DNA of 64,000 nucleotides from a virus. Location of the stretch: IMG/VR virus record IMGVR_UViG_3300033149_003115, positions 1-64,000 of that record, one strand, 5' to 3'. The notes under the pieces were generated by a model. That model did no database searches. It worked only from the letters and a program-made list of their open reading frames with translations, and was not told the DNA's origin. This document shows, one piece after another, positions 4,383-32,551 of this stretch; the stretch's first letter is position 1; the number at the start of each line of letters is the position of its first letter. A program made the position numbers and the translations under genes.

Positions 4383-5305
4383 TTTATCTTTTAACAATAT
4401 CCTTACCACATTAAGGAGACATAGCTATAGAATGAAAATATCCAGAACACTCTGGATATACTTCTTTAAACTACTCATCCTTTTTAAGCTACATCATGTC
4501 TCCTCCATTAGGAGCTTCATAGAAGCCAGATCTCTGGCATTAGTTGATGACATAATTGAGGATATTCTAAATATTAGAATAATCATAAGGTGATATCATG
4601 AGCAAACAAGGTCTTAAGAAGCTAGTAAAGGATTGGTTCTACTCTGATCTAGACATAGAATTTAGACTAAAGGACAAAAAGACCAGAGAAGTAGCTTTAT
4701 GTACCTTTGAAAATAATGCCTGGTATGAGCATATTAATGATCCTACAAGAGGAGTGACTGTCAAGAGTATCAGACACAAGGGAGATCATAGAGAGTTCAT
4801 AGTGGTTGAGTGTAGTGATCACATGTTTGAAAACCTTAAGCAGTATTGTTATCAGGAATACACTATGGATCAAGTGTTGGATCTAATAGAAGAACTATCC
4901 CTTTATTATAGGTTCTTGAAGTAAAGTAACCTCAAACTGATGGAGGAGATAAGTAAGATGACCATTGATGAAGCTATCAAGTTCATGCTCTGGCTCCGTA
5001 AGAATCGTCCCTGGTATATTAACTCCTATCATGATATTTCCAATAAACAATGGGAAGAGATAATGAAAAAGGATTTTAAAGAATACTTTGAATCACAATA
5101 GGAAAGTGATACTACGTATGGGTAGAAGAAAGAGGAGTAAAGGAGCCAAGTACCATGGATACTGCTCCAAGTGTGGAGCTCCAGGGACTTACTATCAAGG
5201 ACAACCAGCTATATGTATCAAATGTGCTAATGATGCTTACATGAGACACCTGGAAGCTATCAGAAAGAAAAAGAGATCCTACCTAGCTAGGAGGAGTAAA
5301 AGGGT

Positions 5306-29426: not shown

Positions 29427-29438
29427 GGAGGTGTGTGT

Positions 29439-29696
29439 ATGAGAGAGATAAGAGTAAGTGACTCTAGGAAGATTGTAGTACAGAAGACCAGGTTTAGGAA
29501 TAGAGAAGTACTTGATGTTAGGACATACATAGAAACTCCTAAGTACACTGGGTTTACCAGGAAGGGAATAAACATCCCAATAGAGTATGCTAAGGATCTT
29601 TCTCAAGCCATACTTGAGGAGATAGCAAAGCAGGATACCATTGATCCTTCCAAGAGCCTGAAACACTTAGATACTAATTTGTCCAGGGAACTGTAG
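29439..29696 (+). CDS. PC4/PdbC-like ssDNA-binding protein
   Basis: FRNREVLDVRTY...FTRKGINIP. Confidence 0.75.
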   Translation: MREIRVSDSRKIVVQKTRFRNREVLDVRTYIETPKYTGFTRKGINIPIEYAKDLSQAILEEIAKQDTIDPSKSLKHLDTNLSREL

Positions 29697-29727
29697 GATT
29701 TACAAAGCTAAAGTGGAGGTGATAATT

Positions 29728-30621
29728 ATGAATGACTTTAAAATTGTTTTATTAGGACACTTAGGAGTGGGATCTATATTCGGAATGATCACCAGAGGAA
29801 ATGAACAGAATAGATTTCAAAGATGGCTGAGGAACGAAGCATGGGAAAAAGCTAAGACAGCTGTTGGGGTTCCAGGGACCTACCCTGATATCCTAGTTAT
29901 AGGTGGAGAAGTAGGAGAGGGACAGAACAGGCTCGATTTCTGTGAGGATATCTGGTTACCAGACTATGAAAAGCAATCCATGATGGGAGCTGAGCTCATA
30001 AGTGAGTGGATAGGTGAGAACACTAAAGAGGTTCTAATTCTCTATGCTCATAGATATCATGGGATGAAAGAGATCAGGTTTGAGGATTTGCTAGCTAAGG
30101 ATCTAAAGATACTTCATCCCAACAAGAAGATACTGGTAGGAACTCAGTTTATCAGATCATACTTTGGTAAGACACTGAGGTTCAGACATGGTACATCTGG
30201 AGCTTTTGTATACTTATCAAGTGCTAATGAGAGACAGATCAAGTTCAACCTGATAGAGTATAGCTTAGGTAAAACACCAAAGTATGACTTCAGCTATGAG
30301 TTCCATAATCACAGAGCAGCTGGAGCCATGTTTGAGACCATTGGATCTATGTGGTGTCCATGTTTCAAGCTAATAGACAGATATGCAGAACTTAGACACC
30401 CCGATGCATGGTTACCAGACATAGGTCTACTAGCTATCACATTCCAGGTTAGGTTTGGTGATGTGAGAGTAAACAATGATCCTATCCTGTTTTATCCTCC
30501 CTTCAGGTTTGAGGATCTGGAGACTGCTATTAGAGACTTTAACAAGGTGTTAGAGGAGAAGAGAAAGGAAACGTATAAGAGACAGCTGGAGCTCCTGAAG
30601 AAGGATACATCATGTTCATAG
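29728..30621 (+). CDS. divergent calcineurin-like phosphoesterase with altered metal-binding motifs
   Basis: IVLLGHLGVG, VIGGEVGEG, RFRHG, FHNH at the positions of the DxH, GDxxD, H and GHxH motifs. Confidence 0.5.
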   Translation: MNDFKIVLLGHLGVGSIFGMITRGNEQNRFQRWLRNEAWEKAKTAVGVPGTYPDILVIGGEVGEGQNRLDFCEDIWLPDYEKQSMMGAELISEWIGENTKEVLILYAHRYHGMKEIRFEDLLAKDLKILHPNKKILVGTQFIRSYFGKTLRFRHGTSGAFVYLSSANERQIKFNLIEYSLGKTPKYDFSYEFHNHRAAGAMFETIGSMWCPCFKLIDRYAELRHPDAWLPDIGLLAITFQVRFGDVRVNNDPILFYPPFRFEDLETAIRDFNKVLEEKRKETYKRQLELLKKDTSCS

Positions 30622-30691
30622 GATAAGCTATGATATGATCCGATGAGATCTGCTTGGTTGTGCTTAGCCAGGTTATGCTAATCTTAGATAA
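30609..30691 (+). ncRNA. pentamer-repeat unit 1 (candidate guide RNA): ATCATGTTCAT leader plus 14 GHT-NN pentamers
   Basis: 12/14 pentamers from 30622 begin G[ACT]T. Confidence 0.75.
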
Positions 30692-30703
30692 CTAGAATAA
30701 TAT

Positions 30704-30776
30704 ATCATGTTCATGGGCTTTGATATGTTAAGCTGGGTTAAGCTCGGTTGTGCTTAGTTGAGCTGAGATAAGTTAA
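30704..30776 (+). ncRNA. pentamer-repeat unit 2 (candidate guide RNA): ATCATGTTCAT leader plus 12 GHT-NN pentamers
   Basis: 12/12 pentamers from 30717 begin G[ACT]T. Confidence 0.75.
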
Positions 30777-30803
30777 ATAGGCTAAATTGTAATTAACGTT
30801 ACA

Positions 30804-30905
30804 TTCATAAGCTCTGATTTGATAAGATATGATGGGTTAGGCTGTGATTAGTTTGGCTTAGCTACGTTGGGTTCGGTTAAGCTAGGATAAGATGTTCTTA
30901 GACAT
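30804..30905 (+). ncRNA. pentamer-repeat unit 3 (candidate guide RNA): TTCAT leader plus 19 pentamers
   Basis: 17 consecutive G[ACT]T-NN from 30811, then TCT-TA GAC-AT. Confidence 0.75.
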
Positions 30906-30936: not shown

Positions 30937-31506
30937 ATGGAGTCAGATTTGATATACCAAATAAGATGTAGAATAATAGGACTAAGACCATATCTACAAC
31001 ATAGAAGACCCATAGACAAGAAAGAGAATAAAGAGCTAAGTAACTTGATTAAAATACTACAGAAAGATGCTACTGATGAGAAAGCATATACTAAGGAAGC
31101 TGAGTACTATGTCTACAAGAACGACAATGGATACTATATTCCATCCATACACATCAAGAGTGCTATGATCAAAGCTTCTACTAACTTTAAGGTAGGAGGG
31201 AAAGGTAACAAGACATACAAGGATTTCGTTAAAGGATTCGTAGTAATAGATCCAAAAGAGATACCAATAAATCCTCAAAAATACACTCTAGATAGAAGAT
31301 GGGAAAGAGTACAACAAGCTAGGATCATGAGAACTAGACCTAGATTTGATGATTGGTCAGCTGAGTTTAATCTAATTAGCTTAGATGAGACAGTATTACC
31401 AATGAAAGACCTAAAGAAAATCATAGTGTATGCAGGAAAGTATATCGGTATTGGAGATAGAAGACCAGAGTTTGGTAGGTTTAAAGTAGAGTTTCTAGAT
31501 GACTAA
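30937..31506 (+). CDS. stand-alone RAMP (Cas7/Csm3-like) protein; candidate Vipr-type RNA-guided effector
   Basis: N-terminal IxCRIIGLRPY strand, YYIPSIHIKSAM (RAMP YIPxSSxKG-like), RPRFDDWSAEF, Gly-rich loop AGKYIGIGDRRPEFGRFKV; RBS GGAGGTG at 30925. Confidence 0.8.
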   Translation: MESDLIYQIRCRIIGLRPYLQHRRPIDKKENKELSNLIKILQKDATDEKAYTKEAEYYVYKNDNGYYIPSIHIKSAMIKASTNFKVGGKGNKTYKDFVKGFVVIDPKEIPINPQKYTLDRRWERVQQARIMRTRPRFDDWSAEFNLISLDETVLPMKDLKKIIVYAGKYIGIGDRRPEFGRFKVEFLDD

Positions 31507-32005: not shown

Positions 32006-32413
32006 GTGATCTTAGCAATGAAACACACAGGTATAAAATACAAACCTAAACACCCTCTAAGTTATACCTGGAGAGGATCCTTCATCTGGGTTGGACCATC
32101 CATAACATCTTCTCTAAGTGATCTAGAGGATCTGATGAGAAAGAGCAAGATCCAGGAGATAGAGAAAAACAGGAAGGTGATGTTGGCTTATAAGAGGATG
32201 TACTCTAAGACTGCTATTTGTCATTCTATTATAGGATCTAGCTCTCTTATAGTTCTACTATCCCTCTTGTTGATAGGGGTACTAGAATCTTTAGCTTTGT
32301 TACCCCTTGTTCTCCTTAGTATCTTTAGGATTATCGAGAGCTATTCTGATTACACAGATAAGAAAGATAAGTATGAGCAATCTCTTAAGAGCTTTGTGAT
32401 AGAGGATATTTAA
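32006..32413 (+). CDS. membrane protein with shared C-terminal tail (VIEDI)
   Basis: two hydrophobic helices near the C-terminus. Confidence 0.55.
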   Translation: MILAMKHTGIKYKPKHPLSYTWRGSFIWVGPSITSSLSDLEDLMRKSKIQEIEKNRKVMLAYKRMYSKTAICHSIIGSSSLIVLLSLLLIGVLESLALLPLVLLSIFRIIESYSDYTDKKDKYEQSLKSFVIEDI

Positions 32414-32415
32414 AC

Positions 32416-32486
32416 GATCATAGTGAGATTAGTTAAGCTTTGTTCCGTTAGGCTCGGCTTCGCTAGGTTAAGTTAGGTTAAGTTTA
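32416..32486 (+). ncRNA. pentamer-repeat unit 4 (detached candidate guide RNA)
   Basis: TCATAG leader, then 12/12 G[ACT]T-NN pentamers from 32427; intergenic. Confidence 0.7.
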
Positions 32487-32551
32487 ATATCACTAAATGC
32501 CGATACTATCGTTATATCCTGATAATAGATTAATAAGAGGTGTATTTAGAA

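What the first reader, a model, noticed from the sequence alone, without database searches (positions are those of the whole stretch)
30622..30905. Scaffold is G-H-T and never GG; decoded variable dinucleotides give testable gapped targets
Seen: over all four units 53 of 57 pentamers start GAT, GCT or GTT and none has G in the middle position, so each pentamer has two fixed bases, one three-way base and two free bases. NN strings: U1 AA AT AT CC GA CT TG GT TA AG AT AA TA AA; U2 TT AT AA GG AA CG GT TA GA GA AA AA; U3 CT TT AA AT GG AG GT TA TG TA AC GG CG AA AG AA GT TA AT; U4 TA AA TT CC AG CG TC AG AA AG AA TA. CG occurs as NN three times although CG is visibly rare in this element, hinting that the information derives from foreign DNA. 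Inference: targets would read NN-x-NN-x, which tolerates wobble-position changes when in frame. The variable middle base may reduce repeat instability or carry extra information.
Basis: partly seen in the sequence, partly recalled or inferred. Interest (0 to 1): 0.8.

Follow-up and report, generated by a model that had tools for sequence, protein, structure and literature searches.

The report
Viral VIPR guide arrays, G-H-U scaffold
The five-letter repeats are guide-RNA genes of a VIPR system, a CRISPR-like viral DNA silencer first described in 2026, here built on G-H-U instead of the published G-G-Y scaffold, so it is a real but already known kind of system in a variant form.

Summary
Four + strand intergenic arrays (30622-30691, 30717-30776, 30811-30905, 32427-32486) contain 57 pentamers. 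53 are G[ACT]T-NN and none has G in the middle. Shuffled sequence gives about 0.04 such runs.

The 189-aa gene next to them (30937-31506) is a homologue of the SUSP1 Vipr protein (PDB 36pp; E 1.3e-14 for the protein alone, 1.8e-45 for a family profile). Its model has a Cas7-like RAMP fold. A pattern-only scan of IMG/VR for such arrays recovered this protein family in 14 of 24 loci.

This is therefore a VIPR system (bioRxiv 10.64898/2026.04.26.720920). This scan has already noted VIPR in at least 328 other genomes.

What differs is the scaffold: G-H-U instead of GGY. The Trp that stacks on G2 in SUSP1 Vipr (W178) is Arg here. In 37 of 47 related loci with readable arrays, an aromatic residue at that position goes with GGY. 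Loci with a non-aromatic residue have a non-G middle base.

No natural target was found. Exact-seed gapped searches of IMG/VR, GTDB genomes and JGI metagenomes gave only chance-level hits, so the skip rule is not shown for this locus.

The parts
30622..30691 (+). vrRNA array U1: 14 pentamers, 12 of them G-H-T. NN = AA AT AT CC GA CT TG GT TA AG AT AA TA AA.
30717..30776 (+). vrRNA array U2: 12 of 12 G-H-T pentamers. NN = TT AT AA GG AA CG GT TA GA GA AA AA. It ends GATAA GTTAA, as do arrays in other viral loci.
30811..30905 (+). vrRNA array U3: 17 G-H-T pentamers to 30895, then TCTTA GACAT. It is longer than the 9-16 units reported for the SUSP1 and P. fulva vrRNAs and runs to about 30 nt before the vipr start codon.
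32427..32486 (+). vrRNA array U4: detached, 12 of 12 G-H-T pentamers, 0.9 kb downstream of vipr in a separate intergenic gap. It is flanked by an imperfect inverted repeat (GATATTTAAAC ... GTTTAATATC).
30937..31506 (+). vipr gene: 189-aa lone RAMP, homologue of SUSP1 Vipr. The G-loop reads GIGDRRPEFGRF. SUSP1 H17, D177, R179 and R138 are kept (window H22, D174, R176, R134). SUSP1 W178 is Arg175 here.
   Evidence: (phrog_4652)
29713..30621 (+). Candidate accessory (vap-like) gene, 302 aa (297 aa from the ATG at 29728). It is next to vipr and the arrays in this genome, in relative G001 and in the distant locus L010. It may have a metallophosphoesterase-like fold with a degenerate motif I in this copy. 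Low confidence.
30610..30621 (+). Short motif TCATGTTCATAG directly 5' of U1, inside the end of the 302-aa ORF. It recurs as TCATGTTCATGG at 30705-30716 before U2, TTACATTCATAA at 30799-30810 before U3, and CGATCATAGTGA at 32415-32426 before U4. It may be a 5' boundary, promoter or processing signal; its function is not shown.
   Evidence: read directly from the sequence

Best explanation
The locus is a VIPR (Viral Interference Programmable Repeat) system carried by a 114-kb virus that is probably archaeal. The four arrays are genes for vrRNAs.

Inferred by homology with the SUSP1 system: one Vipr protomer (the 189-aa RAMP protein) binds each pentamer, two neighbouring protomers sequester the three scaffold bases, and the two NN bases are presented for pairing. 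The resulting helical filament would read double-stranded DNA with one skipped base per repeat (target NN-x-NN-x). It would silence transcription of a competing mobile element, with the skipped base falling on codon wobble positions.

Shown here: the scaffold is G-H-U rather than G-G-Y. The residues that read G1 and Y3 in SUSP1 Vipr are conserved. The Trp that stacks on G2 is replaced by Arg, which plausibly explains why the middle base is A, C or U and never G.

Also shown: the arrays, their strand and register, the Vipr homology and fold, the array-protein co-occurrence, the residue-scaffold covariation, and the absence of self-targets. Not shown: expression, RNP formation, the skip length in this clade, and the identity of the targets.
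For: - **Arrays:** highly non-random, on one strand, intergenic.
- **Co-occurrence:** a scan of IMG/VR for 10 perfect G-H-T-NN units, with no protein information, returned many loci with degenerate arrays. The one protein family shared by 14 of the 24 loci compared (22 from the scan, plus this genome and G001) is that of the 189-aa ORF.
- **Homology:** the family profile hits PDB 36pp 'SUSP1 Vipr protein' at E 1.8e-45. The window protein alone gives E 1.3e-14 over residues 10-188. It is 30% identical over 100% of its length to the phiSUSP1 gene.
- **Fold:** the AF2 model (pLDDT 91.8) matches Cas7, Csm3 and Cmr backbone subunits, E down to 5e-7.
- **Comparison locus:** in SUSP1, GGY-NN arrays lie on the vipr strand upstream and downstream of the gene, the same general layout as here.
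- **Literature:** vrRNAs of 9-16 repeats, one protomer per repeat, 1-nt skip rule, no PAM, no self-targeting, mostly viral.
- **Covariation:** of 47 IMG/VR loci with a G-D-x-R-P G-loop, 37 gave readable arrays with GGY-type units (position 2 = G in about 0.7-1.0 of units), and all 37 have x = W, Y or F. x = R (window, G001) goes with G-H-U (G = 0.00 of 62 units). x = G (L176) goes with G-M-Y. Loci with S, N, L or D there have GUU or RUU.
- **Self-targeting:** no match in the own genome or in G001 above shuffled-NN controls.
Against: - No natural target was found. Every seed hit in IMG/VR, GTDB genomes and JGI metagenomes extends at chance level.
- The published scaffold GGY is not met.
- There is no long conserved 3' tail or pseudoknot like that of the SUSP1 clade. 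Spacers between arrays are only 25-34 nt, and Rfam finds nothing.
- U3, with 17-19 units, exceeds the 9-16 units reported for the SUSP1 and P. fulva vrRNAs.
- No transcription signals rose above background, and no expression data exist.
- The covariation rests on related sequences, not independent events, and has exceptions: L010 and L056 (F) and L073 (Y) have GUU arrays.
Confidence: 0.9

Rival explanations
1. It is a VIPR-type RNP that reads its target differently from SUSP1. It might use another skip length, target RNA rather than DNA, or use the three-way middle base as a third specificity position that reads the 'skipped' base.
For: - The protein is only 30% identical to SUSP1 Vipr.
- The G2 pocket is altered.
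- 1-nt-skip searches found no target.
- Middle-base C is mildly enriched: 21 of 57 observed against about 13 expected from the non-G genome composition (counts; my own arithmetic gives chi-square of about 6.4, P of about 0.04).
- SUSP1 VIPR can also pair with ssRNA in vitro.
Against: - The thumb Arg and the residues reading G1 and Y3 are conserved.
- The published structures place all three scaffold bases in protein pockets facing away from the target.
- Searches at skip 0, 2 and 3 were run only on G000 and G001. They gave nothing but the arrays themselves, found trivially at skip 3.
- Failure to find targets is expected when the rival element has not been sequenced.
Confidence: 0.12
2. The arrays are cis-acting sites on mRNA or ssDNA. 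They would be bound cooperatively by a ring or filament protein with a 5-nt footprint (TRAP-like, or like the T4 gene 32 operator) to regulate the downstream genes, and would not be trans-acting guides.
For: - Period 5, strand specificity and 12-19 units resemble TRAP sites (11 triplets with 2-nt spacers; my own knowledge).
- In this window and in several IMG/VR loci the arrays abut the ribosome-binding sites of downstream genes.
Against: - The co-occurring protein is a Vipr/RAMP homologue, not a TRAP-like ring.
- The NN positions are hypervariable between arrays and between relatives. That fits guides and not a fixed operator.
- Homologous SUSP1 arrays are processed into about 100-nt trans-acting RNAs.
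Confidence: 0.04
3. The arrays are decaying or orphan remnants of a former GGY system and no longer function.
For: - Four of 57 units break the pattern.
- There is no recognisable long 3' tail.
- No target was found.
Against: - Zero G in 57 middle positions cannot come from random decay of GGY.
- G1 and U3 are 96% conserved.
- The same G-H-U scaffold is present in relative G001, with 1 G among 31 units by my hand count of the units printed, although array positions and NN strings differ completely.
- The vipr ORF is intact and its model is confident.
Confidence: 0.03

Closest known systems
Type II VIPR of Escherichia phage SUSP1 (Vipr + vap1 + four vrRNAs; PDB 36pp; bioRxiv 10.64898/2026.04.26.720920, .720927, 2026.10.15.759431)
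   Same: - A lone RAMP protein of about 190 aa, alignable end to end (30% identity), with the G1- and Y3-reading residues and the thumb Arg conserved.
- Arrays of pentamers with three scaffold and two hypervariable bases, on the vipr strand, on both sides of the gene.
- Four arrays of 12-19 units.
- Viral genome; no self-target.
   Different: - The scaffold is G-H-U rather than G-G-Y, and SUSP1 W178 is Arg here.
- There is no roughly 35-nt conserved 3' tail or pseudoknot (SUSP1 arrays end GGTAT GGGTAG...).
- Three arrays lie between an upstream 302-aa gene and vipr, instead of downstream of vap1.
- No vap1 homologue was recognised.
- The virus carries a family B polymerase whose best matches are haloarchaeal tailed viruses. 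The nearest cellular-record Vipr is in a Parvarchaeota MAG.
Non-canonical VIPR repeat classes in the literature: NNNGG, YNNNG and NNNNG repeats (10.64898/2026.04.26.720920, methods); GAC/NN, CAC/NN, WGT/NN and TGH/NN (10.64898/2026.10.21.760802)
   Same: A 5-nt period, a Vipr-like fold next to the array, about 10 or more repeats, and a scaffold that is degenerate at one position.
   Different: G-H-U/NN (fixed G, three-way base, fixed U, in that order) is not among the motifs named in the text of either paper. The figure logos (fig. S17, fig. S10) could not be read, so prior description cannot be excluded.
Class 1 CRISPR-Cas backbone subunits (Cas7, Csm3, Cmr4, type VII Cas7)
   Same: RRM core, G-rich loop and thumb. 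These are the top structural matches. The filament runs along a guide RNA with periodically flipped bases.
   Different: No CRISPR array and no other cas genes. The footprint is 5 nt, with three bases sequestered and two presented, instead of 6 nt with one flipped. The guide is noncontiguous.
TRAP (trp RNA-binding attenuation protein) binding sites
   Same: About 11 triplets separated by 2-nt spacers on one strand (my own knowledge).
   Different: The protein is unrelated, the logic is cis-regulatory, and the triplets are GAG/UAG. This was my first working idea, and I dropped it.

Membership tests
VIPR system | A Vipr protein: a lone RAMP (RRM core, G-loop, thumb) homologous to characterised Vipr | tested here: met
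   - Profile against PDB 36pp_D: E 1.8e-45.
- Single sequence: E 1.3e-14 over residues 10-188.
- 30% identity over 100% of its length to the phiSUSP1 gene.
- AF2 model pLDDT 91.8; Cas7, Csm3 and Cmr are the top folds.
VIPR system | Tandem pentanucleotide arrays with three constrained and two hypervariable positions, next to vipr | tested here: met
   Four arrays of 12-19 units on the vipr strand. Information content per position is 1.78, 0.42, 1.78, 0.17 and 0.20 bits. The array-protein association was recovered without using protein information, in 14 of 24 loci.
VIPR system | Scaffold trinucleotide GGY | tested here: not met
   0 of 57 units have G at position 2; the scaffold is G-[A/C/U]-U. 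The defining papers allow 'a related consensus' and list other variants. This departs from the canonical form but is not a reason for exclusion.
VIPR system | Conserved structured 3' tail capping the repeat tract (a pseudoknot in the SUSP1 clade) | tested here: inconclusive
   Inter-array spacers are 25-34 nt. Only short shared ends are seen: TCTTAGAYAW after U1 and U3, and GTTWAATA..CTAAAT after U2 and U4. There is also a 5' TTCATRR motif. Rfam gave no hit, and folds are unconvincing.
VIPR system | Accessory vap gene beside vipr | tested here: inconclusive
   The 302-aa ORF is conserved next to vipr and the arrays in G000, G001 and L010 only. The metallophosphoesterase signal is weak: Pfam E 8.5e-4 for the L010 homologue, and Atlas score 0.94. 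The AF2 model is unusable (pLDDT 45.8).
VIPR system | Targets read by the 1-nt skip rule in competing mobile elements | tested here: inconclusive
   Exact 9-10-unit seeds were scanned in IMG/VR (U1-U4), GTDB genomes (U1-U3) and JGI metagenomes (U3). Hit counts and extensions are at chance level. The best is U2 at 22 of 24 in L178, L210 and L214, with 18 of the 24 forced by the seed. Mismatch-tolerant search was possible only locally and in 401 genomes of the phylum of the Parvarchaeota MAG.
VIPR system | No self-targeting | tested here: met
   The best 1-nt-skip matches in G000 are 16-22 informative bases, no higher than with shuffled NN order.
VIPR system | vrRNAs expressed and co-purifying with Vipr; DNA binding and silencing | not testable with these tools
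   Needs sRNA-seq, pull-down and reporter assays.
CRISPR-Cas (class 1) | CRISPR repeat-spacer array and further cas genes | tested here: not met
   No repeat array with a 25-80 nt period anywhere in the window. Neighbouring ORFs have no Cas families in Pfam or PHROGs.
TRAP-type RNA-binding attenuation | A TRAP-like ring protein encoded nearby | tested here: not met
   The protein that co-occurs with the arrays is a RAMP. Pfam found no TRAP family in the ten neighbouring ORFs searched.

The most novel reading that the evidence does not exclude
The G-loop residue after the conserved Asp (SUSP1 W178, Arg175 here) sets the identity of scaffold base 2. Switching from GGY to G-H-U would then create an orthogonal VIPR channel. 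This virus's Vipr would ignore canonical GGY guides, including decoy or solo vrRNAs of rivals, and its own guides could not be hijacked by canonical Vipr proteins. On this view scaffold diversification (GGY, GHU, GUU, AGC, GMY) is an arms-race trait with a readable protein-RNA code.
Probability: 0.25. Interest if true: 0.6.

Novelty: new variant of a known kind. Interest (0 to 1): 0.4.

Why it matters
VIPR systems were described only in 2026. They are of interest as a possible ancestor of CRISPR effectors and as compact programmable DNA binders.

This locus does not change that picture. It adds a clean natural example in which the middle scaffold base is any base except G, together with a matching substitution in the pocket that holds that base. 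The trend holds across about 40 related loci with readable arrays. This gives a directly testable rule for how Vipr recognises its scaffold, through an R175W swap and GHU-to-GGU array swaps. It also suggests that mutually orthogonal VIPR variants exist in nature.

The locus also places a VIPR system in a large virus with archaeal-type replication genes. The failed target search and the BamA false positives are a useful caution. Decoded guides look like codons, so in-frame hits to conserved proteins arise by chance.

Tried and rejected
- **TRAP-like or gene-32-like cis operator.** This was my first idea. I dropped it once the co-occurring protein proved to be Vipr.
- **Coding or microsatellite origin.** The arrays are intergenic and degenerate. 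Perfect microsatellites in the IMG/VR scan were filtered out.
- **Known RNA families, tRNAs, promoters, terminators.** Rfam (gathering threshold) gave nothing, ARAGORN gave nothing, and the sigma-70 promoter and terminator scan was at background.
- **Self-targets and targets in relative G001, at skip 0-3.** Nothing above shuffled-NN controls.
- **Cross-targeting.** 142 guides from fetched loci were scanned against G000 and G001; none rose above the null.
- **Target scans with exact 1-nt-skip seeds.**
  - IMG/VR: U3 0 hits, U2 2, U4 4, U1 0.
  - GTDB genomes: U3 15, U2 17, U1 6.
  - JGI metagenomes: U3 1.
  - Extensions are at chance level. Ten of the U2 genome hits are one conserved BamA POTRA site in Desulfobacterales.
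- **Mismatch-tolerant search.** U3 at up to 3 mismatches in 401 genomes of the phylum of the Parvarchaeota MAG gave 0 hits.
- **Structure of the 302-aa protein.** pLDDT 45.8, so it was not used.
- **Relatives of a virus record.** The genome search does not draw them.

Full report
**Observation**

The region was read directly and scanned with a pentamer-run caller. Four arrays of G[ACT]T-NN units lie on the + strand:
- 30622-30691: 14 units
- 30717-30776: 12 units
- 30811-30895: 17 units, or 19 to 30905 if TCTTA and GACAT are counted
- 32427-32486: 12 units

There are no such runs on the - strand. Fifty shuffles of the window give a mean of 0.04 runs of 6 or more units. The whole 113.9-kb genome, a contig with a direct terminal repeat, holds no further array of 7 or more units.

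Of 57 units, 53 fit G-H-T and none has G at position 2 (P about 4e-7 at genome G = 0.227). Information content is 1.78, 0.42, 1.78, 0.17 and 0.20 bits for positions 1-5.

CG is NN three times against 0.33 expected (P = 0.005), in a genome with CpG O/E of 0.14. All arrays are intergenic and on the same strand as the surrounding genes.

**How the identity was found**

Rfam, tRNA and promoter/terminator scans gave nothing. My first idea was a TRAP-like 5-nt-footprint protein acting on mRNA leaders.

A scan of IMG/VR for ten consecutive G-H-T-NN units returned mostly microsatellites. It also returned about twenty loci with degenerate multi-copy arrays of GTT-NN or GCT-NN. These arrays usually lie between genes.

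I clustered all ORFs of the 22 loci with degenerate arrays, plus this genome and G001, by all-against-all BLASTP. Exactly one widely shared family emerged. It is present in 14 of the 24 and is the family of the 189-aa ORF at 30937-31506, immediately downstream of U3. No protein information went into that scan, so the array-protein link is independent evidence.

A profile of this family hits one PDB entry, 36pp, 'SUSP1 Vipr protein', at E 1.8e-45. The window protein alone gives E 1.3e-14 over its full length. It is 30% identical over 100% of its length to the corresponding gene of phage phiSUSP1 and 130 other phage records. The AF2 model (pLDDT 91.8) finds Cas7-type backbone subunits of type VII and type III CRISPR complexes as best folds.

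**What is known about the family**

Three 2026 preprints describe VIPR systems:
- A lone ancestral RAMP, Vipr, polymerises along a vrRNA made of 9-16 GGY/NN pentamers, one protomer per repeat.
- Two neighbouring protomers sequester G1, G2 and Y3 and present N4 and N5.
- The filament reads dsDNA with one skipped base per repeat and forms an R-loop triplex.
- No PAM is needed, and the outcome is transcriptional silencing.
- Natural targets are satellites, prophages and rival VIPR systems, usually in coding sequence with the skip base at the wobble position.

Other repeat forms are mentioned: NNNGG, YNNNG and NNNNG, and GAC/NN, CAC/NN, WGT/NN and TGH/NN. G-H-U/NN is not named in the text I could read. 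The figure logos are not held. This scan has itself noted VIPR in at least 328 other genomes, some with other scaffolds.

**What is particular here**

Mapping the SUSP1 contacts given in 10.64898/2026.04.26.720927 onto the alignment gives:

| SUSP1 residue | Role | Window residue |
|---|---|---|
| H17, D177 | read G1 | H22, D174 (kept) |
| R179 | cation-pi on Y3 | R176 (kept) |
| R138 | thumb | R134 (kept) |
| W178 | stacks on G2 | Arg175 (changed) |

This fits a scaffold that keeps G1 and U3 but not G2.

To test the idea I fetched 47 IMG/VR loci whose Vipr has a G-D-x-R-P G-loop. I called their arrays on the vipr strand.
- 37 of the 47 loci gave readable arrays with GGY-type units (position 2 = G in about 0.7-1.0 of units). 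All 37 have x = W, Y or F.
- The other ten either gave no array that passed my caller (6 loci, including the G001 fragment L130), gave an array or a pooled consensus that could not be read (L131, L137, L157), or were the x = G locus L176.
- The window and its 66%-identical relative G001 (x = R) have G-H-U. G001 has 1 G among 31 units, by my hand count of the units printed.
- L176 (x = G) has G-[A/C]-Y.

In the more distant loci of alignment A1:
- S, N, L or D at this position goes with GUU or RUU arrays (L050, L103, L072, L092, L079, L002, L223).
- F or Y goes with AGC/NN when read on the vipr strand (L053, L100, L101, L081).
- The exceptions are L010 and L056 (F, but with the thumb Arg lost) and L073 (Y), which have GUU.

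These sequences are related, so this is a consistent trend and not a set of independent events.

**Locus architecture**

U1-U3 fill the 315-nt gap between a 302-aa ORF and vipr. U4 sits 0.9 kb downstream, after three small ORFs.

In G001 the arrays instead lie in a 400-nt gap upstream of the 302-aa homologue, with only short runs before vipr. The NN strings of the two genomes share nothing, as expected for fast-evolving guides.

Each array is preceded by a TTCATRR-like motif. The 3' ends fall into two short types. There is no counterpart of the roughly 35-nt SUSP1 tail.

The 302-aa protein recurs beside vipr in G001 and in the distant locus L010. The L010 copy keeps metallophosphoesterase-like motifs (Pfam Metallophos E 8.5e-4; Atlas neighbours partly Metallophos). 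The window copy has Gly in place of the first motif-I Asp. Its AF2 model was too poor to use. It is a candidate accessory gene, no more.

The virus encodes a family B polymerase whose best matches are haloarchaeal tailed viruses at 22-24% identity. The nearest Vipr in a cellular-genome record is on a Parvarchaeota MAG contig (43% identity). An archaeal host is therefore likely but not shown.

**Target search**

No self-target exists in G000 or G001 at any skip length above shuffled-NN controls.

Only exact patterns can be scanned in the large collections, so I used 9-10-unit seeds under the 1-nt skip rule and scored the full guide around every hit.

| Collection | U1 | U2 | U3 | U4 |
|---|---|---|---|---|
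| IMG/VR | 0 | 2 | 0 | 4 |
| GTDB genomes | 6 | 17 | 15 | not scanned |
| JGI metagenomes | not scanned | not scanned | 1 | not scanned |

These counts are about what chance predicts. Extensions are random: U3 reaches at best 28 of 38.

The best case is U2 at 22 of 24 at the start of a small ORF in L178, in frame. Two unrelated genome hits also reach 22 of 24, and 18 of the 24 positions were forced by the seed.

Ten of the U2 hits are one conserved BamA POTRA segment in Desulfobacterales. Nearly all U2 hits are in frame, because the decoded guide looks like a run of codons. In-frame matches are therefore weak evidence.

A mismatch-tolerant search for U3 in 401 genomes of the phylum of the Parvarchaeota MAG found nothing. 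None of 142 guides from other loci matches G000 or G001 above the null. The targets remain unknown.

**Verdict**

The locus is a variant with a G-H-U scaffold and a matching change in the G2 pocket. That change suggests a readable protein-RNA code and possible orthogonality. Expression, skip length and targets are inferred by homology and are not shown here.

This prevented a close-range test on relatives that carry Trp in the G-loop.

Noticed in passing
whole genome G000 (window 1-64000 and beyond): CpG depletion is extreme (O/E 0.14) and GpC is also low (0.71), while AG, CT, GA and TC are over-represented. GC skew is positive throughout the window and nearly all long ORFs are on the + strand. 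The arrays are local CpG-rich exceptions.
   Followed up: partly
L003:3598-4003 and L001:1-115 (relative IMGVR_UViG_3300033149_001657): In the 66%-identical relative the vrRNA arrays sit upstream of the 302-aa gene instead of between it and vipr. Their NN strings share nothing with the window's. The segment GCTNGGATAAGATGT is shared between the end of the window's U3 and the start of the relative's vipr leader.
   Followed up: partly
IMG/VR loci L010, L029, L050, L056, L072, L079, L092, L103 (GTT-NN); L053, L074, L081, L100, L101 (GCT-NN, which reads AGC-NN on the vipr strand): Vipr homologues were found in L010, L050, L056, L072, L079, L092 and L103 (GUU/NN) and in L053, L081, L100 and L101 (AGC/NN). 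In L029 and L074 no homologue lay within the fetched stretch. L100 has about ten arrays at a regular period of about 115 nt. GUU arrays often end GATAA GTTAA, like the window's U2.
   Followed up: partly
L223 (JAUWZX010000003.1, Candidatus Parvarchaeota MAG), about 1572-1660: This is the nearest Vipr homologue in a cellular-genome record (43% identity, G-loop GDDRP). Its pentamer arrays read NN-AAC on the vipr strand, that is GTT-NN on the opposite strand, about 0.9 kb upstream of the gene.
   Followed up: partly
window 32405-32415 and 32482-32491: U4 is bracketed by an imperfect inverted repeat (GATATTTAAAC ... GTTTAATATC) that could close the array in a stem. It is AT-rich and could be chance.
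   Followed up: no
L178 (IMGVR_UViG_3300002220_003056), plus-strand 4627-4662: This is the best candidate target of U2: 22 of 24 informative bases, in frame, 15 nt into a small ORF (MANYKVINGKRVYEDTK...). The contig has 49% GC, normal CpG content and no similarity to G000. The match is statistically indistinguishable from chance.
   Followed up: yes
L200-L215 (Desulfobacterales MAGs): The decoded U2 seed I-[KN]-G-[KN]-R-V-Y-[DE]-[DE] matches a conserved BamA POTRA segment in ten species. This is a homology-multiplied chance hit, and it shows how decoded guides can mimic conserved protein motifs.
   Followed up: yes
window 29433-29696: An 87-aa ORF just upstream of the 302-aa gene has a PC4-like ssDNA-binding domain (Pfam PF02229, E 1.7e-5, just below the curated cut-off). 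Whether it is linked to the VIPR locus is unknown, and no homologue was seen in the other fetched loci.
   Followed up: partly
window 30647-30661 and 30742-30756: U1 and U2 share the 12-nt block GGTTGTGCTTAG and the leader ATCATGTTCAT, which suggests they arose by duplication. U1, U2 and U3 all contain the NN run xG-GT-TA.
   Followed up: no
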